64,000 nucleotides of DNA from a virus. The notes beneath the pieces are model-generated. The model did not search any database, was not told the DNA's origin, and worked only from the letters and a program-made list of their open reading frames with translations. Within the stretch, counting starts at the first letter, position 1; each line of letters starts with the position of its first letter. The stretch lies in the IMG/VR virus record IMGVR_UViG_3300045988_132388; one strand, given 5' to 3'. Shown piece after piece: positions 2,932 to 59,263 of this stretch. A program made the translations under genes and the position numbers.

Positions 2932-3684
2932 TTAAAATGCTGTAACCGGACGAACTCGAGCGCTAACGCCGCGGCCGTTGCCGCCGCGACCGCCAATGCC
3001 GAAGTACAGATGCCTCGCGCTCGCAGCGCCGTTCTCGACACACGACCAATAGTCCGCACGGTTGAGTGGTACCGCCCTCTGCTTGCCTGCCGCATTGATG
3101 CGTGCGATGGCAAGGTTGATGGTGTTGAAGTGATCGTGGATCAGGGCAAGGTCGCCCATCGTGGGCAACCACCAGGACTTCGCCGCAATGACGCTGTCGC
3201 CGCCCACGTCGCCTGTATGCCCTTTCGAGTATGCGTAGGCATACGCCACGGCGTAGGTATCGGGGCTGTCGGAGGCAAATGCTGCGTTCGCCATAATCGC
3301 CGCCGTGCGAGCCTTGCCGTCATACGAGTTCAGATCCTGGCTGCTGTTCACCTCTACCGTCGTAGAGCTTCCCCACTGTCTTGTCACCTCGTCGAGGGCG
3401 ATACCGAGACGGTATCCTCCATACTGGACCACTATGGCATCGGCATCCGCCTGGGTTATGCCGATATTCGTGCGGTTCCACTCTTCCATTCGCAGGTAAG
3501 ATCCCCTTTCCTCTCTCTGCATCTTACCGATAAATACTCCGTCGCCAAGAGCCGTAAGGTTCTTGTTCATCAAATCCACCATGTCGTTTTTTGCTATCTT
3601 TAGAAAATCGTCCTTGATAGCGTTGCTTACTACCGTCGGGTTGGCTGCCAACCACTCGGTCAGTGATATTGTCTTGATTGCCAT
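2932..3684 (-). CDS. DGR target protein, C-type-lectin/DUF1566-like variable C-terminus (probable receptor-binding tip)
   Basis: 250 aa. Contains WWLPTMGDL plus a C-terminal ...DYWSCVENGAASARHLYFGIGGRGGNGRGVSARVRPVTAF that carries the VR. It is adjacent to the 848-aa fibre gene. Confidence 0.85.
   Translation of the reverse strand: MAIKTISLTEWLAANPTVVSNAIKDDFLKIAKNDMVDLMNKNLTALGDGVFIGKMQREERGSYLRMEEWNRTNIGITQADADAIVVQYGGYRLGIALDEVTRQWGSSTTVEVNSSQDLNSYDGKARTAAIMANAAFASDSPDTYAVAYAYAYSKGHTGDVGGDSVIAAKSWWLPTMGDLALIHDHFNTINLAIARINAAGKQRAVPLNRADYWSCVENGAASARHLYFGIGGRGGNGRGVSARVRPVTAF
2938..3063 (-). repeat. DGR variable repeat (VR)
   Basis: Matches the TR (2220-2345) and ends 3 nt before the target stop codon. 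14 adenine-specific differences affect about 12 codons. Confidence 0.92.
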
Positions 3685-3718
3685 ATAATTTTTATTGTTT
3701 AAAAGTTAATAATTCTGT

Positions 3719-6265
3719 TTATTTGGTATTTGCCATGTGTAGAGCGTAGTATTCCGTGCCGTCCCACACAAGCAGGATGTCTATTATATTACCTGCGTTA
3801 CAATAGAGTCCGTCTGTCTTCACGGAGCTCTTGTTGTATAGTTGCGGAACTTGTGTGGTGTTATACGACCCACTTGTCTGGCGACCGCAAATCTTTACGT
3901 TGTGCGGTGATACAGGGCTACATATCACCTGTACTCTCAAGCACCATGTGTGGTCGGCGCTTGCGATAAATGCTGCCACATCGTCGCGTTTGGGTAACAC
4001 CGCAAGCACATCAACCTTTGGGCAGACAAAAAGCCAACGGTTGCCATAGGTGTTCAAGTTCACACACCCGAACTGCTCCGTATTGTGCGTAATGGGCGCA
4101 AAGGATATACCCTCTATCATACCTCGCAAGACGCCATGTCCGACACCCATAAAGGCATAGTTCCTTCCTTTTATACTACCCGAAGCCTCCAGCCATGCCG
4201 CCACATTGTACGTACCCCACGGTATGTCAGTTTTCGCATAGTTTACCTTGAACTCCGCTCCCATCAGGAAGTTGTTGTCACGTATCACGCCCACCTTGCT
4301 GCTCAGATTGCCGCCGTCTGCGGAGATATGGATATTGCTCGCTTCACCTTTGGAAGTGCCAAGCCAATCATCAGGGATGTTATACGTAAGTCCGTTACTT
4401 CCAACTTCAAAACCACCGAGTATTGTGCCGTCCTTCTGCCGTTCACCGCAGAACTTTCCGCCGTTAATCCACGAGCTGTCCGTCACGTTTATGTTTTTGT
4501 ATATTCCGTTTACAGCAGTAATATCAGTAAACGTGCCGCCATTGGAATGGATATTCTTGAATGTGCCGCCGTTGCAAACAATATCGTCCGTCTCGAACAC
4601 ACCGTCAGCATTCACCCTTGCGGTCGTCTTGCCGAGGTTGTTTCTTACCTCGAACTTATCTGCCGTCACGATAACTTTCCGGTTGAAAATGTCGATTCCT
4701 GTCGCTAACATCTCCTCTGTCGTGATAGCCCTGTTGGTGTATTCCGTCGCCCTGCCGTAGGGTTCGAGCTTCAGTCCTGCTATCGCAATCATGCTGTTCT
4801 TCCTCAGCTGCACGGGAATAACGCCTACTGTGCCATCGGTATCTACGCTGAACGTCACGCTGTATCTCGTCCATTCGTATGTCAGCGTCCTGTCGGGCGA
4901 TACGGCGCCGTTGCCGTCCATCGACCAGTTACCATCGTCACGCACTGCCCACGAACAGCCGCTGTTGCTGCCATCGTAGAGATAGGAGTTGAACGAACCT
5001 TTGCCCTGCGCCCAGAAGCTCAACGTATAGACCGAACCTCTGCCGAGCGTCAGCACCTTGCCCGAATCCACCACGTCGAGGTTTGCCGACGAGGATGAAG
5101 CACCCGCAACCACATCGAGCATTTTTCCGTCAATCTCCGCCTTGTCGTCAGCTATCGCCGTACCGTTGCCGAAGCTCCATGCGTTGCTGCGGATGTCGGG
5201 CAGGATATTACCGAGAGCAACAGCATCATCTCTGTTTGCCGACCATGCCGTGCCGTAGCCGTTCGCCGCATCCTCTATCTTCTCTATCTGCGCACATTGC
5301 AGGAAACACTTGCCGCCGCCGTCGTCCTTGCGAGGGTAGGGGAACACGGCAAACTGATATTCTCCTGTCGCTCCGGCATGTGTCCATTTCGTCTCCGCCT
5401 TGCTGTCGGTGGTAGACCTAAGGTCCACATACTGCGTATACGTCCATGTTCCGCTGCCATTCTCCTTGTAGACATAAGCCCTCATGCTGCCGCCACGGGC
5501 AGAGAGTGTAGCGTCAATCCGTCCCCAAATGCTCATGGCATAACTCTTGCCCTTCTCTAAGCGTACCTTGCGCTTGCAGAAGCCGTAGATGCCGCTGCCC
5601 TGGTTCACATAGGAGTTAGGAATCAGATTTCTGTCCCTCACCTCCGTCTGGTTTACCTTCGCACTAATCCTGTTGGAAGTCACCTCTAACGTGCCGACTC
5701 TCTTCGTGAGAGCACCGTTCGCAGTTTTGAGAGAATCAATCTTCCCTTCCGCACTGTCCACTCTGTCGCTTATGCTCGTATAGCTTGCAACAAGTCCCTT
5801 GCTCGTAGAAGACAAGCCACCCCAGAAGGAGCCGCCGTCAACCGTGAACTTCACCTGTGCCGTATACGTCTTGCCGTCGAGTGTGCAGGGGATGGAGATG
5901 TTGGCATATCCTGCCGTACTCGGAATCCTGTGTCCGTCAACGGTCGCTGCCGTGTTGATGGCAGAAAACTGTACCAGCCCCACGGCGCTGCCGCCGACAA
6001 CACTCTTCGATACATAGCCTTGGCAGTTTACGAACACCGCGTTCTTGTCGGCGAAGGTGCAGGAGGCTGTAATGTCCTCGCTGCCCTTGAATACCTTTAT
6101 CTGCGCCTTCTGCGACAACGAGGAGCTTTTAATCTCTCCGTTGTCGTCAGTAGAGAACACAAGGGTGTCGGGGGTAATCCTTACGACAACCCCGTCTTCG
6201 CCATCCTTGCCGTCCTTACCCTTGCGCAGATAGTTTACGATTGTTACATATTGTGCTCCTGCCAT
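3719..6265 (-). CDS. tail fibre / receptor-binding protein
   Basis: 848 aa. Has an N-terminal collagen-like KGKDGKDGEDG, a coiled segment (RVDSAEGKIDSLKTANGALTKRVGTLEV), and repeated jelly-roll-like blocks beginning NLIPNSY... and NILPDIRS... It lies between baseplate-like genes and the DGR target. Confidence 0.65.
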   Translation of the reverse strand: MAGAQYVTIVNYLRKGKDGKDGEDGVVVRITPDTLVFSTDDNGEIKSSSLSQKAQIKVFKGSEDITASCTFADKNAVFVNCQGYVSKSVVGGSAVGLVQFSAINTAATVDGHRIPSTAGYANISIPCTLDGKTYTAQVKFTVDGGSFWGGLSSTSKGLVASYTSISDRVDSAEGKIDSLKTANGALTKRVGTLEVTSNRISAKVNQTEVRDRNLIPNSYVNQGSGIYGFCKRKVRLEKGKSYAMSIWGRIDATLSARGGSMRAYVYKENGSGTWTYTQYVDLRSTTDSKAETKWTHAGATGEYQFAVFPYPRKDDGGGKCFLQCAQIEKIEDAANGYGTAWSANRDDAVALGNILPDIRSNAWSFGNGTAIADDKAEIDGKMLDVVAGASSSSANLDVVDSGKVLTLGRGSVYTLSFWAQGKGSFNSYLYDGSNSGCSWAVRDDGNWSMDGNGAVSPDRTLTYEWTRYSVTFSVDTDGTVGVIPVQLRKNSMIAIAGLKLEPYGRATEYTNRAITTEEMLATGIDIFNRKVIVTADKFEVRNNLGKTTARVNADGVFETDDIVCNGGTFKNIHSNGGTFTDITAVNGIYKNINVTDSSWINGGKFCGERQKDGTILGGFEVGSNGLTYNIPDDWLGTSKGEASNIHISADGGNLSSKVGVIRDNNFLMGAEFKVNYAKTDIPWGTYNVAAWLEASGSIKGRNYAFMGVGHGVLRGMIEGISFAPITHNTEQFGCVNLNTYGNRWLFVCPKVDVLAVLPKRDDVAAFIASADHTWCLRVQVICSPVSPHNVKICGRQTSGSYNTTQVPQLYNKSSVKTDGLYCNAGNIIDILLVWDGTEYYALHMANTK

Positions 6266-20830: not shown

Positions 20831-21649
20831 TTATCGTTTGATATTCCACATGTGCTCAGCCGGGCCAACGAGCACGTCAATGTTTGCGCCCTGCTTCTGA
20901 GCCACCGTCTCCACCCATTTAAGCTGAATAAACTGCTGTGGATTGAGGTTCATTTCGCTCATATACGCCTTGTCTGCCACAGCCTTTTGGCGTTCAGCCT
21001 TCTCGCGAGCCACCTGAACCTCATACTCACGTTCCTGCGTCTGCTTGGCCTGTACCATTTTAGCCGTACGGTTCATTTCGGCAAGCTGCTCCTTGTTGGG
21101 TGTTGCCTTGCCGATGATAACGTCCTTGATGATGACTGGCATAGGCTTGTGTTTGGAGAGGGCTGCGACGTAATCCTGCATCTGCTTCAGAATCTTCTTA
21201 TCGATGGTGCTGAGTACTTCACGGTTCGACATAAGGTCAAACGGACTGTACTGCGAGATATGGTCTCTAACAAGATTACAGAAGTAGTTGTAGAGGTTGG
21301 TGTTAAACCAGTCGCGTCCATAGTTCTGAAGAAGCACGGGCGAACTGCCCTGCTCTACTTGAGTGACGATTACCGAGTGGAAATCAAGCGGAGTGTTGTC
21401 GTCAGAGAAAATGTCGTCAAGAAACACCTCATGGCGTACCGGGACAATCTTGAACGTCTCGGCGCGGGTGCTCATTGCACACCATGTCAGACCACTCTGA
21501 ACGGGAGTGCTGTCAACACCACCGTGTCCGAATATCCAAGGCTTCTTCACCAACACGGCTTCCTCGTCGGCATCGGGCGACACAAAACGACACGAGGATA
21601 ACATCACTACTGCGACAAGCGCAAAAAGAATTGAAAATAATTTTCTCAT
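20831..21649 (-). CDS. lipoprotein with SPFH/band-7 (prohibitin)-like domain
   Basis: 272 aa. Signal peptide plus lipobox (VVMLSSC). The core resembles SPFH, and there is a C-terminal Ala/Glu/Lys/Gln coiled coil (AKQTQEREYEVQVAREKAERQKAVADKA). Confidence 0.5.
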   Translation of the reverse strand: MRKLFSILFALVAVVMLSSCRFVSPDADEEAVLVKKPWIFGHGGVDSTPVQSGLTWCAMSTRAETFKIVPVRHEVFLDDIFSDDNTPLDFHSVIVTQVEQGSSPVLLQNYGRDWFNTNLYNYFCNLVRDHISQYSPFDLMSNREVLSTIDKKILKQMQDYVAALSKHKPMPVIIKDVIIGKATPNKEQLAEMNRTAKMVQAKQTQEREYEVQVAREKAERQKAVADKAYMSEMNLNPQQFIQLKWVETVAQKQGANIDVLVGPAEHMWNIKR

Positions 21650-21672
21650 AATTGTTGTTGTTTAATTGTTTG

Positions 21673-22296
21673 TTATTTTGTTCTTGTTTCCTTCAACCGG
21701 TATTTGTAAGAGCTCAGTCCGTTATCTTCGCCCTTCTCAATCTTCCAGTCGAACCCAGCCGCTTGCAAGCTCTGCATGAAGACATTGTAGTCTCTATCAT
21801 CGATATACGGAGAAATGTTCTCTTCTTCAAAGACAACGAGGTGGGGATTGCGGTCGAGGTTGATGTGAAGTCGGTTTTTGCCGAGGAAGTCGCAAGACTT
21901 GGCCGTATCAATAGGAGCTTCAATATGCAGATTGTAATCTCCCTTTCCGCTTATCCAAAGGTAAGCATAGCAATAGAGTCTTTCTTCTTCAGCATCATAT
22001 CGCTTTGCACATACAATGCAAATTTCAGAGCTGCGGAACGAGAGGATTGCGTAAAGCCGTCCGTCCTCGATATGGTTGAGTATGTATTCGCGACGGTCTT
22101 TCGGAGAGAGGAGCACCGGCACATTGTCAGGGGCGGTCTTTTGCTTCCTCTCTTCCTTCCGTTGCTTTCTCTTCGCAAGATGCTCCTCACACGTTGCCTG
22201 TATGCGCCAAACGGAAAGGGTTACGAAAAAGGAACAAACGGCAACAGCGACGATGAAGAAGCCCCAGCCTAAAAAAGTAGATATAAATACGTTCAT
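21673..22296 (-). CDS. membrane-anchored hypothetical protein
   Basis: 207 aa with an N-terminal TM helix followed by a basic stretch (KRKQRKEERKQK). Confidence 0.55.
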   Translation of the reverse strand: MNVFISTFLGWGFFIVAVAVCSFFVTLSVWRIQATCEEHLAKRKQRKEERKQKTAPDNVPVLLSPKDRREYILNHIEDGRLYAILSFRSSEICIVCAKRYDAEEERLYCYAYLWISGKGDYNLHIEAPIDTAKSCDFLGKNRLHINLDRNPHLVVFEEENISPYIDDRDYNVFMQSLQAAGFDWKIEKGEDNGLSSYKYRLKETRTK

Positions 22297-22321
22297 TGTT
22301 CTATAAATTCGTTATTTGTTA

Positions 22322-23500
22322 TTACTTTGCCTTGAAGTTGTATATCGGCTTGATGCGCTCCACGATTTTTACGGTGTCGCCTATCAACGCTTCTATTTCC
22401 TTTGCCGACTTGTACGCCATTGGAGCTTCGTCGATGGTGGACTCACATACCGATGTGGAGTATATATCGTGCATCTGCTGTCGGTATTCCTCCATACTGA
22501 ACTGTTTCTTTGCCGCCGAGCGCGACATCAGTCTGCCTGCACCGTGGGGAGCCGACCGAAGCCAGTCGTCATTGCCCTTGCCGATACATAGTAGTGAACC
22601 GTCACGCATATTCAGAGGGATAATCAACGGCTCGCCAAACTCTGCGCTCACGGCTCCTTTGCGGATGATGCCATTGAAGATGTTGATATAGTTATGTACG
22701 GTGGTGAACGATTCGCCCCATGTCTTTATTCCGAGGCCCTTGATGATGGTTTGCGCCATAAGTCGGCGGCTCGTTTCGGCATACATCTGGCACACGTGCA
22801 TGGCATCATAGTAGTTGACGAGCGTGAAACCGCTGATATAGGCCATGTCTTTAGAAACGGGCTTCAGCTGGCGTAGCGCGTCGTTTATCTCGCTCTGTCT
22901 GCCCTGGGCTTTCAGTTCGGAAATGATACGTTCCCGCTCATCGCTGTTGTTGCATTGTCTTGATGCCAACTGCTGGAAATGCTTGCATATCTTCACGCCT
23001 AAATTGCGGCTACCCGAATGTATCACGAGATACTTGCGTCCGCTATTGTCCACGTCCACCTCGATGAAGTGGTTGCCACCGCCGAGGGTGCCAAGCGAGC
23101 GCATGACGTAATTGAGGTCGAAAAAATATTCCCAAGAATGCATAAATTCCCGAATTTTGCGCAACATAAGGTCAACCATATCCGAGGCTAAGGGACGCTC
23201 GTGCACGTTGAATCCGCTTGGAATATTGTCGTTGATGATGCGATCGAGCAAGGACAGGTCGATGTTGGCAAAGCCTAAATTCACGACGTGCATACCACAG
23301 CCTATATCCACGCCTACGGTATTAGGTACAACCTTGCCGGCAGTCTGAATTACCGTACCTATTGTGCATCCCTTACCCGCATGACAATCGGGCATAATGC
23401 GTATCTTGCAGTCGCGATAAGCCTCGCTCTCTGCCATCCGCCTTACTTGCTCCTGGGCTTCCGGCTCGATGGTCTTTGCAAAAATCTTTAAGTCGCTCAT
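22322..23500 (-). CDS. rtcB: RtcB-family RNA ligase (3'-phosphate/5'-hydroxyl)
   Basis: 392 aa. Carries MPDCHAGKG, VGVDIGCGM, GGGNHFIE, HSGSRNLG, HNY, APHGAGR and DEAPMAYK, which is the full RtcB motif set. Confidence 0.92.
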   Translation of the reverse strand: MSDLKIFAKTIEPEAQEQVRRMAESEAYRDCKIRIMPDCHAGKGCTIGTVIQTAGKVVPNTVGVDIGCGMHVVNLGFANIDLSLLDRIINDNIPSGFNVHERPLASDMVDLMLRKIREFMHSWEYFFDLNYVMRSLGTLGGGNHFIEVDVDNSGRKYLVIHSGSRNLGVKICKHFQQLASRQCNNSDERERIISELKAQGRQSEINDALRQLKPVSKDMAYISGFTLVNYYDAMHVCQMYAETSRRLMAQTIIKGLGIKTWGESFTTVHNYINIFNGIIRKGAVSAEFGEPLIIPLNMRDGSLLCIGKGNDDWLRSAPHGAGRLMSRSAAKKQFSMEEYRQQMHDIYSTSVCESTIDEAPMAYKSAKEIEALIGDTVKIVERIKPIYNFKAK

Positions 23501-23663
23501 TGTTCGTTGTTCTCTATAAATCCGTTAATAAAAAGAAATGTGCAGTGGTTGAGTTTTCCTTCTCCTCGCTGGTCTGCACCACAGCCCGTTAAGTACGTTG
23601 AACGGAGCGGCGACATGCGCACGCTGAGTACGGTCCCTTGGCCTTCGGGATGAATAGGGGCAA

Positions 23664-24056
23664 CTACAAACGTTTGAGGAGCGTACAGCATCGATAGTCA
23701 AACGCTTTTTCTTCGTAGCCCAACCTTTTATACCATTGCAACACCCACGGAGGAGAGTCGCGTCCGTCCCACGATATTGCAACGGTTTCTATGCCGTAAC
23801 GCTTCAGTGCCTTTTCGGCTGCCTCCATCAGGTGCTTTGCCACCTCACAGCCACGGTGCCGTTCGCCCACCCACAGCGAGTAGATAAGAGCGTCTGCCTC
23901 GCCATCCAAAGGCTTGTCTTCGGTGCGGTGAGGAATGAACGCCTGTATGCTGCCATGATGCTGCTCGTCGGTGACGAGTATGCGAATGGAGTCTTCCCAA
24001 TGTTGAAATTGTATCATGTGCAAAGATATGTTGTTTCTTTTACTCGATATGGACAT
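23664..24056 (-). CDS. GNAT-family N-acetyltransferase
   Basis: 130 aa. LWVGERHRGCEVAKHLMEAAEKALKRYG is an acetyl-CoA-binding R/Q-x-x-G-x-G/A-like segment. The C-terminus has YKRLGY. Confidence 0.75.
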   Translation of the reverse strand: MSISSKRNNISLHMIQFQHWEDSIRILVTDEQHHGSIQAFIPHRTEDKPLDGEADALIYSLWVGERHRGCEVAKHLMEAAEKALKRYGIETVAISWDGRDSPPWVLQWYKRLGYEEKAFDYRCCTLLKRL

Positions 24057-34589: not shown

Positions 34590-34650
34590 TTAAAATTTTG
34601 TGTTTGTGTTGTTGTTATCCTGAATACAACCTTTTTACCAGTTGCTAAAG

Positions 34651-34724
34651 TTGCGGAGGAGGGACTCGAACCCTCGACCTCCTGGTTATGAGCCAAGCGA
34701 GCTGCCAGCTGCTACTACTCCGCT
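34651..34724 (-). tRNA. tRNA with CAU anticodon (Met, or Ile2 if lysidine-modified)
   Basis: Minus strand: acceptor GCGGAG/CTCCGC; D loop AGCTGGCA; anticodon arm CTTGG-CTCATAA-CCAGG; variable AGGTC; T arm GAGGG-TTCGAGT-CCCTC. The acceptor/D junction is slightly irregular (6 clean bp). Confidence 0.75.
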
Positions 34725-38498: not shown

Positions 38499-39080
38499 TT
38501 AATCAGTAAAAGTAGACGAGGTTTCGCCAAAGGGACTGAGCTTATCCATGACAAATGGTATAGTACAGACATATTGCGCTACTTTATAGCGTAGGTCTTC
38601 TTTCGACATACCTCCATTGTTAAATATTCTGCGGTCGAATTTAATCCCCATAGCTGCATTCAGACGCTCCACGTCCCGCAATATACGTGAGAGCTTGACA
38701 CCTCTTGCCAAACGTGTTACTGTAGAACTTTTGATATAAAAGGAATATATCTGAATTTCGGGATGACGATCTTTCATGTCTATCAATCCGACTTCATCCA
38801 CAATATAGATAGCTATATCTTTCACCTGATCTACAGTAGCCCAATATTCATAGCCACCATACTGTGTATATGCTAACACCTCATCAGGATCCACATTAAA
38901 CTCTTTTACAAAATGATGCTCTCTGCCTTCCTGTTCTCCTTCACGCATAGGACGTGTGGTATAGGAACAGATAATAGGCCAGTCTGTCATTTCTGACATT
39001 ATCCGAGCTACAGTGTCCTTTCCTGCACCGCTCAGACCGGTAATTGTTATTAGTTTCATATCAATCTTCTTTATATTCAC
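38499..39080 (-). CDS. guanylate-kinase-like nucleotide (dNMP) kinase
   Basis: 193 aa. P-loop GLSGAGKDT and SYTTRPMREGEQEGREHHFV (the Gmk signature S-x-TTR-x-x-R-x-x-E-x-x-G-x-x-Y/H-x-F). Confidence 0.75.
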   Translation of the reverse strand: MNIKKIDMKLITITGLSGAGKDTVARIMSEMTDWPIICSYTTRPMREGEQEGREHHFVKEFNVDPDEVLAYTQYGGYEYWATVDQVKDIAIYIVDEVGLIDMKDRHPEIQIYSFYIKSSTVTRLARGVKLSRILRDVERLNAAMGIKFDRRIFNNGGMSKEDLRYKVAQYVCTIPFVMDKLSPFGETSSTFTD

Positions 39081-40167
39081 TCAAAAGAGCGTTGCCGCAG
39101 GTTATTCTATCCTCGTCCTCTTCCACAGAAGGAACAAAAACAATCACATCCCAACCTGCCTTGACAAGCGGTTGTTCAAACTGTTTGTAAACATCGTATG
39201 TGTAATATCCCTCCTCAGTCTGAATGCCATTACTTATAGCCTCTTTTGTCTCGTGAATAGGAGTTATCTTTACAATGAACTTTTCCTTATCAAAGAGTTT
39301 GTCCAAAACGGCAGGGTCTAATATCGTGTCTTTAGTGACAGGAAAATTCAACGTGTACTTTCTGCCGACCGGCATAGGTAAATCACGGCAAATCTCTGAG
39401 ATTTCCTGCAAAGTCAAGGATCGACCACGGAACAAATCATTACGCTGCTCTTCATCTGTAGAGTTTATAGACAACTGCAATCCGGCTTCACCTCTAAACT
39501 CGTAGTTCTTGAGTTGACAGAACTCACCAAGAATACGTTTCAGAGTTTTGCTTCCCAAAGAACCCGGAAGCATGGTCGTAAATACAGGATGGATAACATC
39601 TGCATCCATGAATACGTTGACATCATCCCTGAGATAGCACAGCAAATATATCTTGATGTTATTCCAGTTGAATGACGGTTCGCCCATACGAGCCAGATGA
39701 AGGTTGAAACGCTTGGTGTGCTGACACTCCGAACGAACGATAGCCGATATTACTTCTTCTCGCAGATCGCTAACCTTAGCATTACCGTGGAAACCGACTT
39801 TAGGGCAGTCACAGAACTTACATTTCATCGGACATCCTTTTTGAGTGGAAATAGTAACAACCATCTTATCCTCAAGATCTACCTTCTTATGGGTTACACC
39901 ATTAATTTCCTTAGTCAATCCAAGGAAGTCCGCCTTTATGTTGGCTTCCTTGCCATAGTCGCCAACATATAAATATTCAAGACATTTTTTAGTATCACTA
40001 AAAATTGCTCCAGTACGAGTCTTAGATTCTTTAATCATAATAGAAATACATATCGTTTTATTGATATTTTCAATCTTTAATTCAAATGGACGAGAAGTTA
40101 TAAAACGAGGTGAGCCACATTCTTTATACGGCACTTCTGTGATAGTGATGGCGATAGTGATAGCCAC
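39061..40167 (-). CDS. radical SAM enzyme of the RlmN/Cfr family (start uncertain)
   Basis: ISTQKGCPMKCKFCDCPKVGFHGNAKVSDLREEV, MGEPSFNWNN, LQLSINSTDEEQRNDL and a C-terminal DRITCGNAL align with E. coli RlmN CVSSQVGCALECKFC...GFNRNL, MGMGEPLLN, ISLHAPNDEIR and DIDAACGQL. The first ~12 codons of the track ORF are encoded by GATAGTGAT repeats and may be non-coding. Confidence 0.7.
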   Translation of the reverse strand: MAITIAITITEVPYKECGSPRFITSRPFELKIENINKTICISIMIKESKTRTGAIFSDTKKCLEYLYVGDYGKEANIKADFLGLTKEINGVTHKKVDLEDKMVVTISTQKGCPMKCKFCDCPKVGFHGNAKVSDLREEVISAIVRSECQHTKRFNLHLARMGEPSFNWNNIKIYLLCYLRDDVNVFMDADVIHPVFTTMLPGSLGSKTLKRILGEFCQLKNYEFRGEAGLQLSINSTDEEQRNDLFRGRSLTLQEISEICRDLPMPVGRKYTLNFPVTKDTILDPAVLDKLFDKEKFIVKITPIHETKEAISNGIQTEEGYYTYDVYKQFEQPLVKAGWDVIVFVPSVEEDEDRITCGNALLSEYKED

Positions 40168-40190
40168 CGCAGTCGGGTGATAGTGATAGC
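40139..40190. repeat. three 12-13 bp direct repeats GATAGTGAT(G/A)GC
   Basis: Copies at 40141-40152 and 40153-40164 (tandem) and at 40179-40190. They lie between the tRNA-like RNA and the body of the RlmN-like ORF. Confidence 0.7.
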
Positions 40191-40210
40191 GAAATAAAAG
40201 ATGTTGACTG

Positions 40211-40346
40211 CGGAGTGATTTTCGCGCAATACTTGCTCTAACCAGCTGAGCTACTTTTCTTCCGAAAAGAAAAGATAGGATTCGAACCTATGACCTCGTG
40301 AGACACGTTTCGGAAAAACGTATGATTCACTAAAAAGAAAACTCCG
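40211..40346 (-). ncRNA. circularly permuted tRNA-like RNA (Y-RNA/YrlA-type tRNA mimic or permuted tRNA gene)
   Basis: Order on the minus strand: ACGTT-TTTCCGA-AACGT hairpin; 13 nt ending AGGTC; T arm ATAGG-TTCGAAT-CCTAT; CTTTTCT; a 7-nt loop; AGAAAAG; TA; D arm GCTC-AGCTGGTTA-GAGC. The flanks CGGAGTTTTC and GAAAA(TC)ACTCCG pair with each other. Confidence 0.6.
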
Positions 40347-40426
40347 TATGCTATCAGTGTGAGGGTCAGTTTCACGGTACAAAACCTTCAGTCTGACCTT
40401 ACCCACCTCGTATTATATTTTATGTT

Positions 40427-41350
40427 TTACAAACCGTTGACCTCCGCATATATTCCCTGGAGATTATTAGGGATGATAATGCGCAGAGACGTTATCTCTT
40501 TGATTTCTTCCTGTTGCCACTCAACGAACATCGTCTGTAATCTCGACATTTCGGTATCGAAATTGTTTCTCTTTTCTTGATGTTCTGCATACTTCTTCTT
40601 GTATTCAGCCAATCGCTTGCTGTACTCCTTCTCGGCTTCAATGCGGAAACGATGCTCAATACCATTAAACTCAGCTTGCAATGCTCGATATTCGCCCTGA
40701 AGCTGAAAGAAGGTCCTGTTCAGTCGGTCGATGGTACCGGGTTCAACATTATAAGAGAACACGACCATATCGCGGCCTTCACCTTCTATCTCCGTAGGAT
40801 TAGCCAGACGGTGTGACACTCTCTTCAAGGCCAGAGGCAACAGTCCGTCGGGATGAATATACTTACCATACACCGCCATCTTGGTTTTCAACTCAATATA
40901 GCGGTTGCGATCCTTTACGTTCAGAATCTCGTTGCCCACCTTGTCAATATCGGAAACGGGGTCAGGAGCAACCGGCTTTTCAGGAAGAGTAATATTGTGA
41001 TCGTCAGCCCACACCATGAAGTTGCAGTCTTGCACTGACTTCAAACCTTTCTCACGTTCATTGATAGCCTCACGCAGCCAACCGATAAGGGCATTGCACT
41101 GAGCTACGCGACGTATAACATCGGGAATAGCATCAAGGGTGTCAAGAGGGGCTTCCACAATCGACGGCTGTGTATCCCCAAGCAGACGTGCGCTCTTGGT
41201 GTAAAGACGTAAGGTATCAGCCTGCGCTAAGATGCGCTGCGCATACTCTTTAGCCATGTTTGCAACATGGTTAGCAGATGTGGCTGTCAAACCTTCTTTC
41301 GCAAAAAATACTTTGTTCATATATATCGTTTTTTGTTCGTATTTTAACAT
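40427..41350 (-). CDS. hypothetical protein
   Basis: 307 aa ORF with a C-terminal coiled coil. Confidence 0.55.
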   Translation of the reverse strand: MLKYEQKTIYMNKVFFAKEGLTATSANHVANMAKEYAQRILAQADTLRLYTKSARLLGDTQPSIVEAPLDTLDAIPDVIRRVAQCNALIGWLREAINEREKGLKSVQDCNFMVWADDHNITLPEKPVAPDPVSDIDKVGNEILNVKDRNRYIELKTKMAVYGKYIHPDGLLPLALKRVSHRLANPTEIEGEGRDMVVFSYNVEPGTIDRLNRTFFQLQGEYRALQAEFNGIEHRFRIEAEKEYSKRLAEYKKKYAEHQEKRNNFDTEMSRLQTMFVEWQQEEIKEITSLRIIIPNNLQGIYAEVNGL

Positions 41351-45397: not shown

Positions 45398-46303
45398 ATG
45401 GAACTACGACATCTACGATCTTTTGTTTATGTGGCGGAAACTCTTTCATTTTCTGTCGCCGCCGACCGATGTTGCGTCACGCAATCGGCAATCAGTCAAC
45501 ACATCAAAACCCTGGAGGAAGAGCTGGGATGCAAACTACTAATTCGTACCTCGCACGACATTACGCTTACAGAATACGGCGAAGCTCTTTTGCCTCGCGC
45601 AAAGGACATACTAAAGCAGACCGCCGACTGTAAAGAACATATACATGCACTAAACAACTGCATGACCGGTGAGTTGCGTATTGGTGTTGGTTCGTTTATC
45701 GCTCCATATATCCGCGAGGCTGCAATCATTTTTATGGAGCGTTACCCTAACGTAAGGCTTAATGCTGAAATGACAAAAGCCACCAGCCTGAACCATCTGT
45801 TACGCAACCACGAACTCGACATAGCGTTCACGATGAACACAGCATATAAGAATGAGGGTATTGAATCTATACCGTGCATACCCTTCCATATCTACGCCAT
45901 AATGCGCAACACCCATCCATTGGCAAAACTGCCGGAGGTGTCATATAAGGATATGCTCTGCCACAGCGTTATTATGCCGGCTGTGGGGGAACGTGTGTTC
46001 AATACCTTTCAGCAATATATGCGACACGACCTTACGAAGCTCAACATCAAGTGTATAGTAAGTGATCCTGACGAAGACCTTGCTATCGTGGAGGAAAAAC
46101 AAAGCATAACTTTTATGCCTAAGCTTTATCTGAAGAACCACCCTACCCTCGTTGCCAAACCTATTGCTGAACTAAAGACAGCCCTTATGAGTAATGCTCA
46201 CTATATGCAGGACGTGCCTCTCAAACGCTCCGCACAGATATTCCTTGACATTATAAGACAAGAAGCAATACCATATATCCAGGAATTGGAGAAAACCTAT
46301 TGA
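45398..46303 (+). CDS. LysR-family transcriptional regulator
   Basis: 301 aa. N-terminal wHTH MELRHLRSFVYVAETLSFSVAADRCCVTQSAISQHIKTLEEELG... plus a LysR substrate-binding-type C-terminal domain. Confidence 0.88.
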   Translation: MELRHLRSFVYVAETLSFSVAADRCCVTQSAISQHIKTLEEELGCKLLIRTSHDITLTEYGEALLPRAKDILKQTADCKEHIHALNNCMTGELRIGVGSFIAPYIREAAIIFMERYPNVRLNAEMTKATSLNHLLRNHELDIAFTMNTAYKNEGIESIPCIPFHIYAIMRNTHPLAKLPEVSYKDMLCHSVIMPAVGERVFNTFQQYMRHDLTKLNIKCIVSDPDEDLAIVEEKQSITFMPKLYLKNHPTLVAKPIAELKTALMSNAHYMQDVPLKRSAQIFLDIIRQEAIPYIQELEKTY

Positions 46304-56655: not shown

Positions 56656-57687
56656 ATGGAGTTAAACATTACGCTTTCTGAAGCATTGGAGCGAGCTTCG
56701 GAAGGACTGCGAAAGAAGATGCTTCACTCAGTGGAGCTACTGCAAAAAGCAGAGAGGATTGCTCTGAACTATGATGCCGAGAATGGATATTACTTAGCGT
56801 TTAGTGGTGGAAAGGACTCTCAAACTCTTTTCCACATAACTCAGTTAGCTGGAGTTAAATTCCACGGTCACATGAGTCTAACAAGCATTGATCCACCCGA
56901 AGTGATACGTTTCGCAAAGAAGAACTATCCCGAAGTGGAACTGCTAAAGCCTGGCAAATCAATCTTCCAGCACGCTGTAGAAAATCAAATTCTGCCCACT
57001 ATGCGTGTGCGTTGGTGTTGCGCTGAATACAAGGAGACGGCAGGTGCTGGCAAGGTTACGCTAATCGGCATCCGCAAGGCAGAGAGCACACGCCGAGCCA
57101 AGCGAAATGAGGTGGAAATAAACAACCGAAAGTTTAGCGGCGATCTTGACGGTCTCGACGAATACCGACAGGAGCAGAAGGCTAAACGTGCTCGTCGCAA
57201 ATCTAAAGAGCAAGGTGTGAACATCACAAATGCTGATGAAGAAAAGACGTTAGGTTGCATCCACGGCAAAGAGAGTCTGCTGATCTCGCCCATCATCTAT
57301 TGGACGGAAAAGGACGTATGGGAGTTCCTCAACGATGTAGTGAGGGTTCCACATTGCTCGCTTTACGATGAGGGTTGGCATCGCATAGGTTGCATAGGCT
57401 GCCCAATGTCGTCTGCAAAGCAGAAGCGCATCGAGAACGAACGTTATCCGCACGTAAAACGAAACTGGATTAAGGCGATTAAAGCCATCCGAAACGGGGG
57501 GGGTATTCAAAAAAGAATATATCTGGTGGAACATCCGGAAGGACTGGATGCCTCTCAGAAATGTCAGAGGATTGCTCAGGACGCAGGCGGCTACATCAAG
57601 CATTCAGACCCAAAACACTGGATGGGGAGGAAGAATACGAGGAGCAGCTATGCCAACACCAGGGGTTTCATCCAGCTCCTCTTCTGA
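56656..57687 (+). CDS. PAPS-reductase-like PP-loop protein (IbrA-like); the 3' end is probably mis-framed
   Basis: LAFSGGKDSQTLFHI is a PP-loop SGGKDS motif. A G8 run at 57496-57503 lies where the +1 frame (open 57458-57820) becomes the better-looking coding frame. Confidence 0.7.
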   Translation: MELNITLSEALERASEGLRKKMLHSVELLQKAERIALNYDAENGYYLAFSGGKDSQTLFHITQLAGVKFHGHMSLTSIDPPEVIRFAKKNYPEVELLKPGKSIFQHAVENQILPTMRVRWCCAEYKETAGAGKVTLIGIRKAESTRRAKRNEVEINNRKFSGDLDGLDEYRQEQKAKRARRKSKEQGVNITNADEEKTLGCIHGKESLLISPIIYWTEKDVWEFLNDVVRVPHCSLYDEGWHRIGCIGCPMSSAKQKRIENERYPHVKRNWIKAIKAIRNGGGIQKRIYLVEHPEGLDASQKCQRIAQDAGGYIKHSDPKHWMGRKNTRSSYANTRGFIQLLF

Positions 57688-57876
57688 CCGCTTGACAGAG
57701 GAGCAAGAGAACGAAATAGCGGAGAATATCTACGATTGGTGGATTTCGGGCAAATCATACAAACAATGGTATGCCGAGAAATTCCAACAGATGAAATTTG
57801 ACTTTGGGGAGGAATTATAAACAACACAAAACAACACACAATATGAACAACAAACTAAACGGAAAGGAGGTCCACA

Positions 57877-58470
57877 ATGGCTAAGGACTGGGTGGGCGGC
57901 TCGGCTGCTGTATTCAAGACATTAGGCGCAAGCAACCATACGGATGCGGATCGGCAGCGGGAGGATTACTATGCCACTGAGCCGAAAGCGACGGAATGGC
58001 TGTGCAAGCTGGAGCGATTTGAGGGAAGGATATTGGAACCTTCGTGTGGCGAGGGTCACATGAGCGAGGTGCTGAAAGCAGCAGGGTATGAGGTGGTGAG
58101 CCGCGACCTTGTGGATAGAGGTTACGGTGAGGTGGCCGACTTCCTCGCAATAGACAACTTGGCGTGGAACGGAAACATCGTCACCAATCCGCCCTACAAA
58201 TTCGCGCAGCAGTTTGTGGAGAAGGCCCTAAGCATCATCCCCGAAGGAAAGAAGGTGGCGATGTTCCTGAAACTGACTTTCCTTGAAGGCAAGGCGCGAC
58301 GCGCTCTCTTCCGTTCTACTCCCCCCATTCGTGTTTGGGTAAGTTCGTCACGACTGAAATGTGCTCCCAACGGAGATTTCAATGCTATTGTTGGCAGCGC
58401 AGCGGCATACGCATGGTTCGTATGGGAGAAAGGATATAAAGGCGAGACAACTGTGAAATGGTTTAACTGA
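57877..58470 (+). CDS. N6-adenine DNA methyltransferase
   Basis: 197 aa. EPSCGEGH (motif I) and IVTNPPYKF (motif IV, NPPY). Confidence 0.8.
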   Translation: MAKDWVGGSAAVFKTLGASNHTDADRQREDYYATEPKATEWLCKLERFEGRILEPSCGEGHMSEVLKAAGYEVVSRDLVDRGYGEVADFLAIDNLAWNGNIVTNPPYKFAQQFVEKALSIIPEGKKVAMFLKLTFLEGKARRALFRSTPPIRVWVSSSRLKCAPNGDFNAIVGSAAAYAWFVWEKGYKGETTVKWFN

Positions 58471-58492
58471 TAGAATTACAAAACGACAAAGC

Positions 58493-59263
58493 ATGATAGA
58501 ACTGAATAAGATATATAATGAGGACTGCCTGGAAGGGATGAAACGGATTCCTGACGGGAGCGTGGATTGCATTGTGTGCGATTTGCCGTATGAAGTTCTG
58601 AACAAAGGCAATGAAAAAGTACGATGGGATAACATTATCCCGATAAAGCCTCTATTCAAGGAGTACTGGCGAATAGCGAAAACTAACGCTCCCATTATTC
58701 TCTTCGGTCAAGGAATGTTTACGGCACAGCTAATGATGGCAGAGCCAGACACATGGCGATATAATCTAATTTGGCAAAAAGACAGACCAACAGGCTTTCT
58801 TAATGCGAAGCGTATGCCTATGCGAAGCCATGAGGATATTGCTGTGTTCTACCGTGCGTTACCTACATACAATCCACAAATGAGACAGGGTTCCCCCTCT
58901 CATTCACGAGGACATAAACAAGGAAAAGCAAGGGGTAATGCTTGTTATGGCAACTATAATATTGAGACCTACTCAAAAGAAGCAACAACAGAGAAATATC
59001 CTATATCTGTATTGTTATTCGACAAAGAAAAGAATCTTGATATGCACCCCACCCAAAAACCTGTCGCTCTTATTCAGTATCTCATCCGTACCTACTCCAA
59101 CGAGGGCGACACCATCTTGGACAACTGTATGGGCAGCGGCACCACCGCCATTGCTTGTATAAAAGAGAAGCGCAACTTCATCGGCTTCGAGCTCAACAAG
59201 GAGTATTACGACAAAGCTTGCAAGCGCATCAAACTGGAGCTGGCGCAACCCACTCTCTTCTGA
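58493..59263 (+). CDS. DNA methyltransferase, N4/N6 beta-class (PF01555-like)
   Basis: 256 aa. DCIVCDLPYEV (a D-P-P-Y variant), HPTQKPVAL and ILDNCMGSGTTAIAC. Confidence 0.85.
   Translation: MIELNKIYNEDCLEGMKRIPDGSVDCIVCDLPYEVLNKGNEKVRWDNIIPIKPLFKEYWRIAKTNAPIILFGQGMFTAQLMMAEPDTWRYNLIWQKDRPTGFLNAKRMPMRSHEDIAVFYRALPTYNPQMRQGSPSHSRGHKQGKARGNACYGNYNIETYSKEATTEKYPISVLLFDKEKNLDMHPTQKPVALIQYLIRTYSNEGDTILDNCMGSGTTAIACIKEKRNFIGFELNKEYYDKACKRIKLELAQPTLF

What the first reader, a model, noticed from the sequence alone, without database searches (positions are those of the whole stretch)
40211..40346. Circularly permuted tRNA-like RNA: 3' half precedes the 5' half and the acceptor stem is capped by a loop
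On the minus strand the element reads:
- ACGTT-TTTCCGA-AACGT, an anticodon-arm-like 5-bp stem with a 7-nt loop and U33 (40305-40321);
- 13 nt ending in AGGTC;
- T arm ATAGG-TTCGAAT-CCTAT (40275-40291);
- CTTTTCT (40268-40274);
- loop TTTCGGA;
- AGAAAAG (40254-40260);
- TA;
- D arm GCTC-AGCTGGTTA-GAGC (40235-40251).

Every arm is perfect and the tertiary-contact residues are present (U8, A14, G18G19, C48, TTC). The order is permuted, and no 5' half exists upstream.

The flanks CGGAGTTTTC (40337-40346) and GAAAA-TC-ACTCCG (40211-40223) pair into an 11-bp bulged helix that closes the structure at the position 26/27 junction.

This is the architecture known for bacterial and phage Y-RNA-like tRNA mimics (YrlA type), which are usually linked to rsr and rtcB. 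Alternatively it is a true permuted tRNA needing end-joining. The phage encodes RtcB (22322-23500), but no Ro60/TROVE gene is visible in the window.
Basis: partly seen in the sequence, partly recalled or inferred. Interest (0 to 1): 0.85.

Follow-up and report, generated by a model that had tools for sequence, protein, structure and literature searches.

The report
tRNA mimic inside larger phage RNA
A gut Prevotella-type phage encodes a roughly 300-base structured RNA whose middle folds like a transfer RNA with its halves swapped and its acceptor end sealed. It resembles the tRNA-mimicking bacterial Y RNAs but sits on a different scaffold, apparently undescribed, beside a gene of unknown function.

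Summary
The T arm, loop-capped acceptor stem and D arm are at the stated coordinates. They are under selection: 14 homologous modules are 97% paired with compensatory changes, and the tertiary 15:48 pair covaries 14/14.

Two parts of the description fail. The "anticodon-like" hairpin is a variable hairpin at the YrlA "V" position. The 10-11 bp closing helix is not conserved and competes with two conserved helices.

The element is the core of a ~305-nt RNA (40411→40105, minus strand). This RNA has a terminal helix plus U-tract, a 5' hairpin with conserved ACUGA/GAAAC internal-loop strands, and a further long-range helix. It always directly follows an uncharacterised ~300-aa gene (40427-41350) in Bacteroidales phages and prophages. 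Most relatives keep the scaffold without a tRNA-like module; one nests a normal tRNA there.

Rfam YrlA matches only the T-acceptor-D core (33.6 bits against a gathering score of 69). There is no GNCGAA motif, and no Ro60 gene in about 84 of 99.7 kb.

Verdict: a YrlA-like tRNA mimic on a new scaffold, not a YrlA member and not a functional permuted tRNA. Its function is unknown. The phage's RtcB/Band-7 genes, about 17-19 kb away, are a candidate partner.

The parts
40105..40411 (-). Whole predicted structured RNA, about 305 nt, running from the P1 5' strand to the P1 3' strand. The ends are inferred, not mapped.
   Evidence: MFE fold of the 315-nt stretch closes these ends. The RNAalifold consensus of 14 relatives gives the same result. 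The same P1 + U-tract layout is found across the family.
40401..40411 (-). P1 5' strand, ACGAGGUGGGU
   Evidence: Pairs with 40105-40115. It is 100% paired in 14 sequences with 3 compensatory pairs. It covaries in other subfamilies.
40364..40398 (-). P2 hairpin: GGUCAG / ACUGAA / GGU-loop-ACC / GUGAAA / CUGACC. The internal-loop strands ACUGA and GAAAC are conserved.
   Evidence: In 27 distinct hairpins from the family, all 7 outer-stem pairs show compensatory changes and the loop strands are nearly invariant. The hairpin is fully conserved in close relatives.
40344..40349 (-). P3 5' strand, AUACGG.
   Evidence: Pairs with CCGUAU at 40126-40131 and is 98% paired. An equivalent helix with a different sequence is present in L271, L346, L289, L351 and L443.
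40303..40323 (-).
   Evidence: A hairpin is present in all relatives, but with changed sequence, register and loop: L375 has AUGCU-9 nt-AGCAU and L370 has CGUUU-GCAA-AAACG.
40292..40302 (-). Variable-loop equivalent, ending AGGUC (C48)
   Evidence: C48 or U48 covaries with G15 or A15 of the D loop in 14 of 14 modules.
40275..40291 (-). T arm, AUAGG-UUCGAAU-CCUAU
   Evidence: Three of its 5 pairs are compensatory across modules.
40254..40274 (-). Acceptor-like stem capped by a loop, CUUUUCU-UUUCGGA-AGAAAAG
   Evidence: All 6 aligned pairs show compensatory changes across 14 modules, for example CUCGCGC/GCGCGAG and UUUGUGA/UCACAAA.
40235..40253 (-). U8-A9 plus D arm, GCUC-AGCUGGUUA-GAGC
   Evidence: D-stem pairs are compensatory (GCUC, GUUC, GUGC and class-II forms).
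40167..40213 (-). P6 hairpin, CCGCAGUC ... GACUGCGG.
   Evidence: 100% paired in 14 sequences, with 2 compensatory pairs.
40137..40190 (-). 3' domain with UAUCAC-type direct repeats. One copy pairs with UAGUG at 40327-40331 (helix P5).
   Evidence: Repeat families were found. P5 is in the consensus fold but shows no covariation.
40126..40131 (-). P3 3' strand, CCGUAU
40098..40115 (-). P1 3' strand GCUCACCUCGU followed by a UUUUAUA tail, a terminator-like end
   Evidence: The simple terminator scan did not call it, because the stem is long-range.
40427..41350 (-). Upstream gene 'cc307' (about 297-307 aa, function unknown). The RNA starts about 15 nt after its stop codon.
   Evidence: Every locus that has the RNA has this gene directly upstream on the same strand. 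Relatives without the gene lack the RNA. It has more than 366 homologues and no Pfam, PHROG, NCBIfam, PADLOC or PDB match.
20831..23500 (-). Candidate partner only; the link is not shown. RtcB ligase is at 22322-23500, an unknown 207-aa ORF at 21673-22296, and a Band-7/SPFH protein at 20831-21649.
   Evidence: Pfam RtcB 2e-62 and Band_7 7.8e-13. The published association of RtcB, Band-7 and a tRNA-like RNA is quoted in bioRxiv 10.1101/312249.

Best explanation
Shown:
- The element is the tRNA-like domain of a ~305-nt structured non-coding RNA on the minus strand (about 40411 to 40105).
- The RNA begins about 15 nt after the stop codon of a conserved phage gene of unknown function (cc307, 40427-41350). 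It ends in a long-range terminal helix (P1) followed by a U-tract.
- The scaffold consists of P1, a 5' hairpin (P2) with conserved ACUGA/GAAAC internal-loop strands, helix P3, and a repeat-rich 3' domain. It is shared by many Bacteroidales phages and prophages.
- The tRNA-like module is an optional insert in that scaffold.
- In the window, the insert runs variable loop, T arm, loop-capped 7-bp acceptor stem, U8-A9, D arm. Its tertiary 15:48 pair covaries with the rest of the family, so it most likely folds into a tRNA-like L-shape with an intact elbow.
- It has no anticodon arm and no free or CCA end. It cannot decode and, uncut, cannot be charged.

Inferred:
- It works like the effector domain of YrlA: a tRNA mimic displayed on a carrier RNA, so that a factor recognising the tRNA elbow or acceptor/T stack is recruited or titrated.
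- The scaffold, with its P2 loop and repeats, would bind another partner. The co-inherited cc307 protein is the obvious candidate.
- The most plausible client for the mimic is tRNA damage and repair traffic: the phage's own RtcB/Band-7 module, or host tRNA-processing or tRNA-targeting enzymes.
- Because the acceptor stem is 7 bp, RNase P nicking in the capping loop is possible, as reported for M. smegmatis YrlA.
- The RNA is probably made by read-through from cc307 and ends at P1 plus the U-tract.
For: Sequence and Rfam:
- The arms are present at the stated coordinates.
- YrlA is the only Rfam match, E = 1.6e-5, and it is reproduced in four relatives at 32-35 bits.

Selection on the module:
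- 97.4% of cells are paired against 72% in shuffles (0/500), and 38-51% when the register is slid. Eleven of 14 pairs are compensatory.
- The Levitt pair (15:48) covaries 14/14.
- My covariance model of the module scores at least 53 bits only at sites downstream of cc307 homologues.

The larger RNA:
- Conservation extends well beyond the finding on both sides.
- The consensus fold has P1, P2, P3 and P6, is 98.6% paired, and has compensatory pairs in P1, P1b and P6.
- P2 covaries at all 7 outer pairs in 27 variants.
- A Prevotella subgroup with no tRNA module has the same P1/P2/P3 layout, with 22 of 54 pairs compensatory.
- P1 plus a U-tract recurs with different sequences.

RNA rather than duplex DNA:
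- G-U pairs occur on this strand in P1, P2 and the T stem.

Linkage to cc307:
- The RNA is always directly downstream of cc307 on the same strand, even at 30% protein identity. The cassette is absent from relatives that go straight from the primase gene to the radical-SAM gene.

Host range:
- Bacteroidales.

Repair context:
- RtcB and Band-7 lie in one gene cluster. The literature link between RtcB, Band-7 and tRNA-like RNAs, and RNase P cleavage of a 7-bp-stem YrlA, come from PMC4201824 and 10.1101/312249.
Against: - There are no expression data, so the RNA ends, its processing and even its transcription are inferred.
- The modules in the covariation set were found by a search that required pairing, which biases the percentage paired. 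Their homologous position, the slid-register control and the 15:48 covariation argue against an artefact.
- Within the window clade there are effectively two subtypes, so compensatory changes in P1 and P6 represent few independent events.
- The interior junction (P4, P5 and the region between the D arm and P6) is not resolved.
- RtcB/Band-7 is about 17-19 kb away. Only 3 of 15 element-bearing contigs appear in the truncated top-80 RtcB list, so no specific linkage is shown.
- Most family members lack any tRNA-like module, so the mimic is not essential to the scaffold's core function.
- cc307 has no recognisable RNA-binding fold: the AF2 model has pLDDT 80 and no PDB match.
Confidence: 0.6

Rival explanations
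1. It is a bona fide YrlA-type Y RNA that binds a Ro60/Rsr protein. That protein would be encoded in the unseen ~16 kb of the phage genome or by the host. The RNA would act as a Ro60 gate or tether, as in Salmonella or mycobacteriophages.
For: YrlA is the only Rfam family matched. The module order is the same, the ends are paired, and the 15:48 pair covaries as reported for YrlA (PMC4201824). RtcB is present in the genome.
Against: The score is 33.6 against a gathering score of 69, and only the T-acceptor-D core aligns. The GNCGAAN0-1G motif is absent from all 14 close relatives. No TROVE gene occurs among the ORFs of 300 aa or more in the window, nor in 20 kb beyond it, whereas published YrlA genes lie within 4 kb of Ro60 on the same strand. 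T and D stem sequences vary freely here but are nearly invariant in YrlA. The conserved partner gene is cc307, not rsr.
Confidence: 0.08
2. The tRNA-like module is mainly a processing and stability signal. RNase P, or 3'-end enzymes, recognise the acceptor/T stack and cut or protect the carrier RNA. This would define its ends or nick it into two base-paired pieces. Canonical tRNAs nested in or abutting other family members would do the same job.
For: One relative (L443) nests a normal tRNA-Thr at the same position. L346, L358 and L439 have tRNA-Arg a few nucleotides after P1, and L425 has a tRNA-Gln after the RNA. The window's acceptor stem is 7 bp on a 5-bp T stem, the length reported to make M. 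smegmatis YrlA an RNase P substrate. The module is dispensable in most relatives.
Against: Acceptor-stem length varies from 4 to 8 bp among modules, and no CCA or discriminator is conserved in the capping loop. Conservation of the D arm and the 15:48 tertiary pair goes beyond what RNase P minimally needs. No cleavage data exist.
Confidence: 0.17
3. It is a genuine circularly permuted tRNA gene. Its transcript would be end-joined, for example by the phage RtcB, and opened at the acceptor loop to give a working tRNA.
For: All the tertiary-contact nucleotides are present. Subtype B relatives carry a 5-bp/7-nt anticodon-like arm (UUGCUAA) directly after the D arm. Rfam's tRNA model scores L139 at 32 bits, just above its gathering score of 29. 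RtcB is encoded.
Against: The window copy and all subtype A copies lack the anticodon arm through a 12-nt gap. The anticodon-like loop shrinks to 6 nt in L142 and L376. No CCA is present and bacteria have no bulge-helix-bulge processing pathway. The flanks are held in conserved helices of a larger RNA. ARAGORN finds nothing here.
Confidence: 0.03
4. It is a non-functional remnant of rearranged tandem tRNA genes, or a DNA-level element such as a replication origin with hairpins and iterons next to the primase gene.
For: The cassette lies between the primase and nucleotide-metabolism genes, and short direct repeats are present. Junctions of tandem identical tRNAs can mimic a T-acceptor-D order: most hits of the first pattern scan, and the mid-scoring hits of my model, were such junctions.
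Against: Compensatory changes in every arm, plus tertiary covariation, show purifying selection on the fold. G-U pairs occur on one strand only. No complete tRNA flanks the module. The cassette is missing from close relatives, so it is accessory and not an essential origin.
Confidence: 0.05

Closest known systems
YrlA (Y RNA-like A; Rfam RF02553), the tRNA-mimicking Y RNAs bound by bacterial and mycobacteriophage Ro60/Rsr
   Same: The 5'-to-3' order is the same: optional V hairpin, T arm, loop-capped acceptor stem, D arm. [quoted passage not shown] The tRNA tertiary nucleotides and 15:48 covariation are present. The design is modular, with a carrier plus a tRNA-like effector. A phage can encode it, and an RtcB gene is in the same genome.
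   Different: The score is below half the gathering score. There is no GNCGAAN0-1G motif and no Ro60 gene nearby. T and D stems are not sequence-conserved. The carrier is a different, larger scaffold (P1/P2/P3 plus a repeat domain) that also exists without any tRNA-like module. The conserved neighbouring gene is an unrelated protein of unknown function.
RtcB/Band-7 systems with 'b7a-tRNA' (Burroughs and Aravind 2016, as quoted in bioRxiv 10.1101/312249)
   Same: The genome has RtcB and a Band-7/SPFH protein in one cluster, plus a tRNA-like non-coding RNA. The literature notes that YrlA-type RNAs sometimes replace b7a-tRNA.
   Different: The RNA is about 17-19 kb from RtcB/Band-7, not adjacent to them. 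It has permuted order and does not resemble an authentic tRNA. The original paper could not be read here.
Circularly permuted tRNA genes (red alga Cyanidioschyzon merolae and some other algae and archaea; from my own knowledge)
   Same: The 3' half precedes the 5' half, with the acceptor strands joined by a loop. A likely origin is tandem duplication of a tRNA gene.
   Different: Those genes give functional tRNAs after circularisation and have complete anticodon arms. Here the anticodon arm is missing and the flanks are locked into a larger RNA.
Large phage-associated structured RNAs that adjoin or nest tRNAs (GOLLD, ROOL; from my own knowledge)
   Same: It is a phage- or prophage-borne structured RNA of several hundred nucleotides and unknown function, and members have tRNAs next to or inside them.
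   Different: No Rfam family other than YrlA and tRNA matches the window RNA or its relatives. It is smaller (230-420 nt), is tied to a specific protein gene, and occurs in Bacteroidales.
Other tRNA mimics: the tmRNA tRNA-like domain, plant-virus 3' tRNA-like structures, MALAT1 mascRNA
   Same: A tRNA-like T/acceptor stack or elbow is used to engage tRNA enzymes (summarised in 10.1101/312249).
   Different: Those have a free 3' end, or one generated by RNase P, and are aminoacylated or cleaved. Here the acceptor is sealed by a loop and internal to the RNA.

Membership tests
YrlA (RF02553) | T arm, loop-capped acceptor-like stem and D arm in that 5'-to-3' order | tested here: met
   Sequence; Rfam alignment; covariation in all three stems.
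YrlA (RF02553) | tRNA tertiary contacts, including a compensating 15:48 Levitt pair | tested here: met
   G15:C48 six times and A15:U48 eight times, never mixed. U8, A14, G18G19 and the UUCGAAU T loop are present.
YrlA (RF02553) | Reaches Rfam's gathering score over the full model | tested here: not met
   33.6 bits against 69, with the flanks aligning poorly. Relatives score 32-35 bits. There was no hit at gathering threshold.
YrlA (RF02553) | GNCGAAN0-1G (Ro60/Rsr-binding) motif near the 5' end | tested here: not met
   The motif is absent from the window RNA and from all 13 relatives in alignment A3. The CCGAA in the V-hairpin loop is not conserved.
YrlA (RF02553) | Encoded within about 4 kb of a Ro60/TROVE gene on the same strand | tested here: not met
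   No TROVE hit among the ORFs of 300 aa or more in the window, nor in the precomputed Pfam lists for 20 kb beyond it. About 16 kb of the genome, and the host, remain unchecked.
YrlA (RF02553) | Nearly invariant D- and T-stem sequences | tested here: not met
   T stems found: AUAGG, GUAGG, ACGGG, GCUGG, GCGGG, GCAGG. D stems found: GCUC, GUUC, GUGC and class-II forms.
YrlA (RF02553) | Bound by Ro60/Rsr; modified by TruB and DusA | not testable with these tools
   Needs immunoprecipitation and modification mapping.
Functional (permuted) tRNA gene | Complete anticodon arm | tested here: not met
   A 12-nt gap relative to subtype B removes the 5' strand and loop. ARAGORN makes no call. The Rfam tRNA model gives 17.3 bits against 29.
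Functional (permuted) tRNA gene | Acceptor end that can be opened to give N73-CCA | tested here: not met
   The capping loop is UUUCGGA. No CCA is conserved in the loops of 14 modules.
b7a-tRNA of RtcB/Band-7 systems | tRNA-like gene adjacent to the RtcB and Band-7 genes | tested here: not met
   RtcB is at 22322-23500 and Band-7 at 20831-21649. There is no tRNA or module next to them, and the element is about 17-19 kb away.
cc307-associated scaffold RNA (family defined here) | Lies directly downstream of a cc307 homologue on the same strand | tested here: met
   In the window the gap is about 15 nt.
cc307-associated scaffold RNA (family defined here) | P2 hairpin with ACUGA / GAAAC internal-loop strands, P1 terminal helix plus U-tract, and P3 | tested here: met
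Known large phage RNAs in Rfam 15 (GOLLD, ROOL and others) | Match to the family's covariance model | tested here: not met
   No such hits at the gathering or E-value thresholds.

The most novel reading that the evidence does not exclude
The cc307 protein and the scaffold RNA would form a previously unrecognised phage ribonucleoprotein, a Ro60-independent analogue of the Ro60/Y-RNA particle. In this reading the P2 loop and repeat domain bind cc307. Interchangeable cargo modules (permuted tRNA mimics, double mimics or real tRNAs) present a tRNA elbow to the RNA-repair machinery (RtcB/Band-7) or to host tRNA-targeting defences. That would make it an accessory counter-defence cassette of Bacteroidales phages.
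Probability: 0.25. Interest if true: 0.85.

Novelty: new variant of a known kind. Interest (0 to 1): 0.68.

Why it matters
tRNA-mimicking Y RNAs have so far been defined by their partnership with Ro60. Here the same permuted, sealed tRNA fold is under clear selection with no Ro60 gene or Ro60 motif. It sits on a different and apparently undescribed structured RNA that is widespread in phages of dominant gut and rumen Bacteroidales, and it is inherited together with an uncharacterised protein family of more than 366 members.

If this holds, three things follow:
- tRNA-elbow display has been recruited more than once as a portable RNA module.
- There is a tractable new RNA-protein pair to study in Prevotella and Bacteroides phage biology.
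- The open question of what the tRNA-like domain of Y RNAs actually recruits becomes testable in a second, independent system that also carries RtcB and a Band-7 protein.

Tried and rejected
- GenBank phage searches, near and distant, found no match.
- A search with the radical-SAM neighbour as anchor gave 18 loci. The closest (92-93% aa identity) lacked the element, which showed that the radical-SAM gene is not the linked gene.
- The pattern scan for T loop, gap, D arm returned mostly junctions of tandem tRNA genes. The pattern CACGAGGU...GGUUCGA returned mostly ordinary tRNAs.
- P2 as a hammerhead core (CUGA...GAAA) was rejected by inspection: there is no G8/A9 and no three-way junction. P2 as a kink-turn remains an untested idea.
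- cc307 gave nothing in Pfam, PHROGs, NCBIfam, PADLOC, PDB sequence search or PDB fold search. BFVD gave one uncharacterised phage protein.
- The promoter and terminator consensus scan was uninformative on the minus strand.
- RtcB co-occurrence could not be assessed because both lists are truncated.
- Burroughs and Aravind 2016, the 2020 Ro60 review and the supplement of Chen 2014 were not available.
- Literature searches found no description of this RNA.
Full report
**1. The observation.**
- hairpin ACGUU-UUUCCGA-AACGU, 40305-40321
- a 13-nt stretch ending AGGUC
- T arm AUAGG-UUCGAAU-CCUAU, 40275-40291
- capped stem CUUUUCU-UUUCGGA-AGAAAAG, 40254-40274
- UA, then D arm GCUC-AGCUGGUUA-GAGC, 40235-40251
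- the two flanks that can pair

ARAGORN and Rfam at gathering threshold see only a normal tRNA-Met at 34650-34724. At E-value threshold, the only meaningful hit in 40000-40600 is YrlA (RF02553). It scores 33.6 bits against a gathering score of 69, E = 1.6e-5, and essentially only the T-acceptor-D core aligns. The 148-nt fragment is not unusually stable (z = -1.2), so the case has to rest on comparative evidence.

**2. Relatives.**
GenBank phages hold nothing similar.

I first used the downstream radical-SAM-like gene as an anchor and found 18 IMG/VR loci. The closest ones (92-93% protein identity) lack the element, while a 75% relative (L005) has it in a different position relative to that gene.

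The pairwise alignment showed that conservation extends upstream of the finding into a perfectly conserved hairpin, GGUCAG...CUGACC. A pattern built on that hairpin retrieved about 17 contigs. One is a distant contig (L271) with two tandem T-acceptor-D modules behind a hairpin whose stem is changed in a compensatory way.

A tblastn survey then showed the rule. The element always lies directly downstream of a homologue of the 307-aa ORF at 40427-41350 ("cc307"), even at 30% identity. Relatives that run primase, radical-SAM, kinase, ThyX without cc307 also lack the element.

cc307 has more than 366 homologues, all unnamed, with strongly conserved motifs such as GLTSTSANH, LIAWLREA and IIIPNDL. 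It has no match in Pfam, PHROGs, NCBIfam, PADLOC or the PDB. An AlphaFold model (pLDDT 80) matches only one uncharacterised phage protein.

Scans of GTDB genomes and IMG/VR with the cc307 alignment gave 160 loci. Nearly all the genome records are Bacteroidales (Prevotella, Muribaculaceae, Alistipes, Bacteroides). One is a Prevotella MAG contig at 93% identity.

**3. The element is a domain of a larger RNA.**
In the window, the stretch from 40411 to 40105 folds with its ends paired: ACGAGGUGGGU with GCUCACCUCGU, followed by UUUUAUA.

RNAalifold on 14 sequences of the window clade gives these helices:
- P1, 9 bp, with 3 compensatory pairs
- the P2 hairpin
- a short helix, P1b
- P3, (C)AUACGG with CCGUAU(G)
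- P5, weakly supported
- the T, acceptor and D arms
- P6, CCGCAGUC with GACUGCGG, with 2 compensatory pairs

Overall 98.6% of cells are paired, against 35-51% in slid registers.

Across the wider family, P2 shows compensatory changes at all seven outer-stem pairs in 27 variants, while its internal-loop strands ACUGA and GAAAC stay nearly invariant. A Prevotella subgroup with no tRNA-like module has the same P1, P2, P3 and U-tract layout, with 22 of 54 predicted pairs compensatory. P1 plus a U-tract recurs with unrelated sequences in other subgroups.

G-U pairs on this strand indicate a transcript rather than duplex DNA. No Rfam family covers the scaffold.

The gap between the cc307 stop codon and the RNA is about 15 nt here and 0-80 nt elsewhere. 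Co-transcription with cc307 is therefore the simplest reading, though it is inferred.

The radical-SAM ORF as listed (start 40167) would overlap the RNA. Homology begins near residue 37-50, so its real start is probably the ATG at 40038.

**4.
Counted on the 14-sequence alignment, the 10 proposed pairs are 80.7% paired and no better than shuffles. Three of the five outer pairs break in subtype B, and the innermost C-G pair exists only in the window. The same nucleotides belong to P3 and P6, which are conserved. The claim of closure at the 26/27 junction is therefore not supported.

How the interior junction is organised remains unresolved, including P4, P5 and the segment between the D arm and P6.

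**5. The tRNA-like module is real and selected.**
T-acceptor-D modules occur downstream of cc307 in the window clade (subtypes A and B), in L286/L379, and in a clade (several members from rumen MAGs) where cc307 is only about 30% identical. That clade has two modules per RNA. The second has a class-II-type D arm and an anticodon-like arm.

Acceptor stems differ almost completely between lineages yet always pair: CUUUUCU/AGAAAAG, CGUUUCU/AGAAAUG, CUCGCGC/GCGCGAG, AUCACG/CGUGAU, UUUGUGA/UCACAAA and others.

On 14 modules, 97.4% of cells pair, against 72% in shuffles (0/500) and 38-51% in slid registers. All 6 acceptor pairs, 3 of 5 T pairs and 2 of 3 D pairs are compensatory.

The nucleotide preceding the T stem and the second D-loop nucleotide are C/G in six modules and U/A in eight, never mixed. 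This is the Levitt-pair covariation that Chen et al. reported for YrlA, and it argues for a tRNA-like L-shape.

One caveat applies: the modules were collected by a search that required pairing. Their homologous position and the tertiary covariation are independent of that search.

A covariance model of the module scores at least 53 bits only at these sites. Weaker hits are junctions of tandem tRNAs.

Subtype B has a 5-bp/7-nt anticodon-like arm (UUGCUAA) right after the D arm. The window and the rest of subtype A lack it through a 12-nt gap.

One relative (L443) nests a canonical tRNA-Thr at the same place in the scaffold. Several others have a tRNA immediately after P1. The tRNA-like part therefore behaves as an exchangeable insert.

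**6. Comparison with YrlA and other known systems.**
From PMC4201824 and 10.1101/312249, YrlA is defined by:
- the V, T, AS, D order
- tRNA tertiary contacts
- a GNCGAAN0-1G Ro60-binding motif near the 5' end
- a stem formed by the two ends
- nearly invariant T and D stems
- a location within 4 kb of Ro60 on the same strand

Of these, the order, the tertiary contacts and the paired ends are met here.

The others are not met. The motif is absent from all 14 close relatives. No ORF of 300 aa or more in the window has a TROVE domain. None is recorded in 20 kb beyond the window on the source contig, ENA ERZ27229675:k119_216065, a circular ~99.7-kb genome. T and D stems vary freely.

I therefore do not file it as a YrlA member, although it very likely works like the YrlA tRNA-like domain.

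A functional permuted tRNA is unlikely: there is no anticodon arm, no CCA, and the flanks are locked in conserved helices.

A decayed remnant or an origin of replication is contradicted by the covariation, by the strand-specific G-U pairs, and by the absence of the cassette from close relatives.

**7. Mechanism.**
Shown:
- a conserved, probably co-transcribed ~305-nt RNA
- a selected tRNA-like fold that is sealed at the acceptor end and lacks an anticodon arm
- strict linkage to cc307

Inferred:
- The module presents a tRNA elbow and acceptor/T stack to some tRNA-recognising factor.
- The scaffold binds another partner, most plausibly cc307.

Candidate clients for the mimic:
- The phage's RtcB (22322-23500) lies in one cluster with a Band-7/SPFH protein (20831-21649). 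The literature links RtcB/Band-7 systems to a tRNA-like RNA and notes occasional substitution by YrlA. Here the genes are about 17-19 kb from the RNA, and I could not demonstrate co-occurrence.
- RNase P is another candidate, because the acceptor stem is 7 bp, as in the cleavable M. smegmatis YrlA.
- Host tRNA-targeting defences would be a further client. This is speculation.

**8. Verdict.**
The core observation is confirmed and strengthened. The closing helix and the "anticodon arm" are not.

The YrlA interpretation is right about the kind of structure but wrong about family membership. It also missed the larger RNA and its protein-gene partner.

I rate the finding as a new variant of a known kind: a YrlA-like tRNA mimic on a new scaffold with a new genetic partner. 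Function is unresolved, and I give it an interest score of 0.68.

Noticed in passing
window 20831-24056 (-): One gene cluster holds a GNAT acetyltransferase (23664-24056), RtcB (22322-23500), an unknown 207-aa ORF (21673-22296, weak SieB-like hit) and a Band-7/SPFH protein (20831-21649). RtcB/Band-7 pairs are reported in the literature to accompany a tRNA-like RNA, but none lies next to them here.
   Followed up: partly
window 947-6265 (-): This looks like a diversity-generating retroelement: a reverse transcriptase (947-2188), a bAvd accessory protein (2384-2842) and, upstream, an 848-aa protein with a weak carbohydrate-binding hit (3719-6265) as the possible target. The template and variable repeats were not searched for.
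   Followed up: partly
window 39061-40167 (-): The radical-SAM protein next to the RNA (PHROG 24834) has a weak RlmN/Cfr-like core match (TIGR00048, 7e-11, far below the cut-off). Its listed GTG start would overlap the RNA, and the real start is probably the ATG at 40038. Its position relative to the cassette differs in L005, and it is present without the cassette in L001-L004.
   Followed up: partly
window 40128-40192 (-): The 3' domain of the RNA contains four UAUCAC repeats and a 27-nt duplication. Other family members instead have (Y)UUG-rich repeats and a recurrent GGUUCUYG motif in the equivalent region. Their role, whether a protein-binding platform or alternative pairing, is unexplained.
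   Followed up: partly
L443 2340-2620; L346, L358 and L439 downstream of cc307: One relative nests a canonical tRNA-Thr(GGU) inside the scaffold RNA. Others carry two chained permuted tRNA-like units (T1-AS1-D1-linker-T2-AS2-D2-anticodon arm) and a tRNA-Arg(ACG) a few nucleotides after the terminal helix.
   Followed up: partly
L396, L404 and similar loci, about 270-340 nt after cc307: ARAGORN calls an odd tRNA-like gene ('tRNA-???', two-base anticodon) with T arm UUAGG-UUCGAGU-CCUAA directly after the scaffold RNA in a large group of IMG/VR contigs.
   Followed up: no
whole window; L524, L526: The window is the reverse complement of ENA contig ERZ27229675:k119_216065 (99,779 bp) and spans its ends. 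The genome is therefore circular or circularly permuted, at about 99.66 kb. The flanking 20 kb encodes a HicA toxin, HTH regulators, an LPD29-domain protein and a beta-clamp-like protein, with no tRNA and no TROVE gene.
   Followed up: yes
window 45398-46303 (+), 56656-59263 (+): The phage carries a full-length LysR-type regulator, plus a PAPS-reductase-domain protein and, two genes downstream, a DNA methylase.
   Followed up: no
window 40364-40398 (-) and 26 homologous hairpins: The arrangement of the P2 internal loop (three or four unpaired bases then GA on one strand, GA(AA) on the other, next to a short covarying stem) is reminiscent of a kink-turn. This is an idea only and was not tested.
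   Followed up: no
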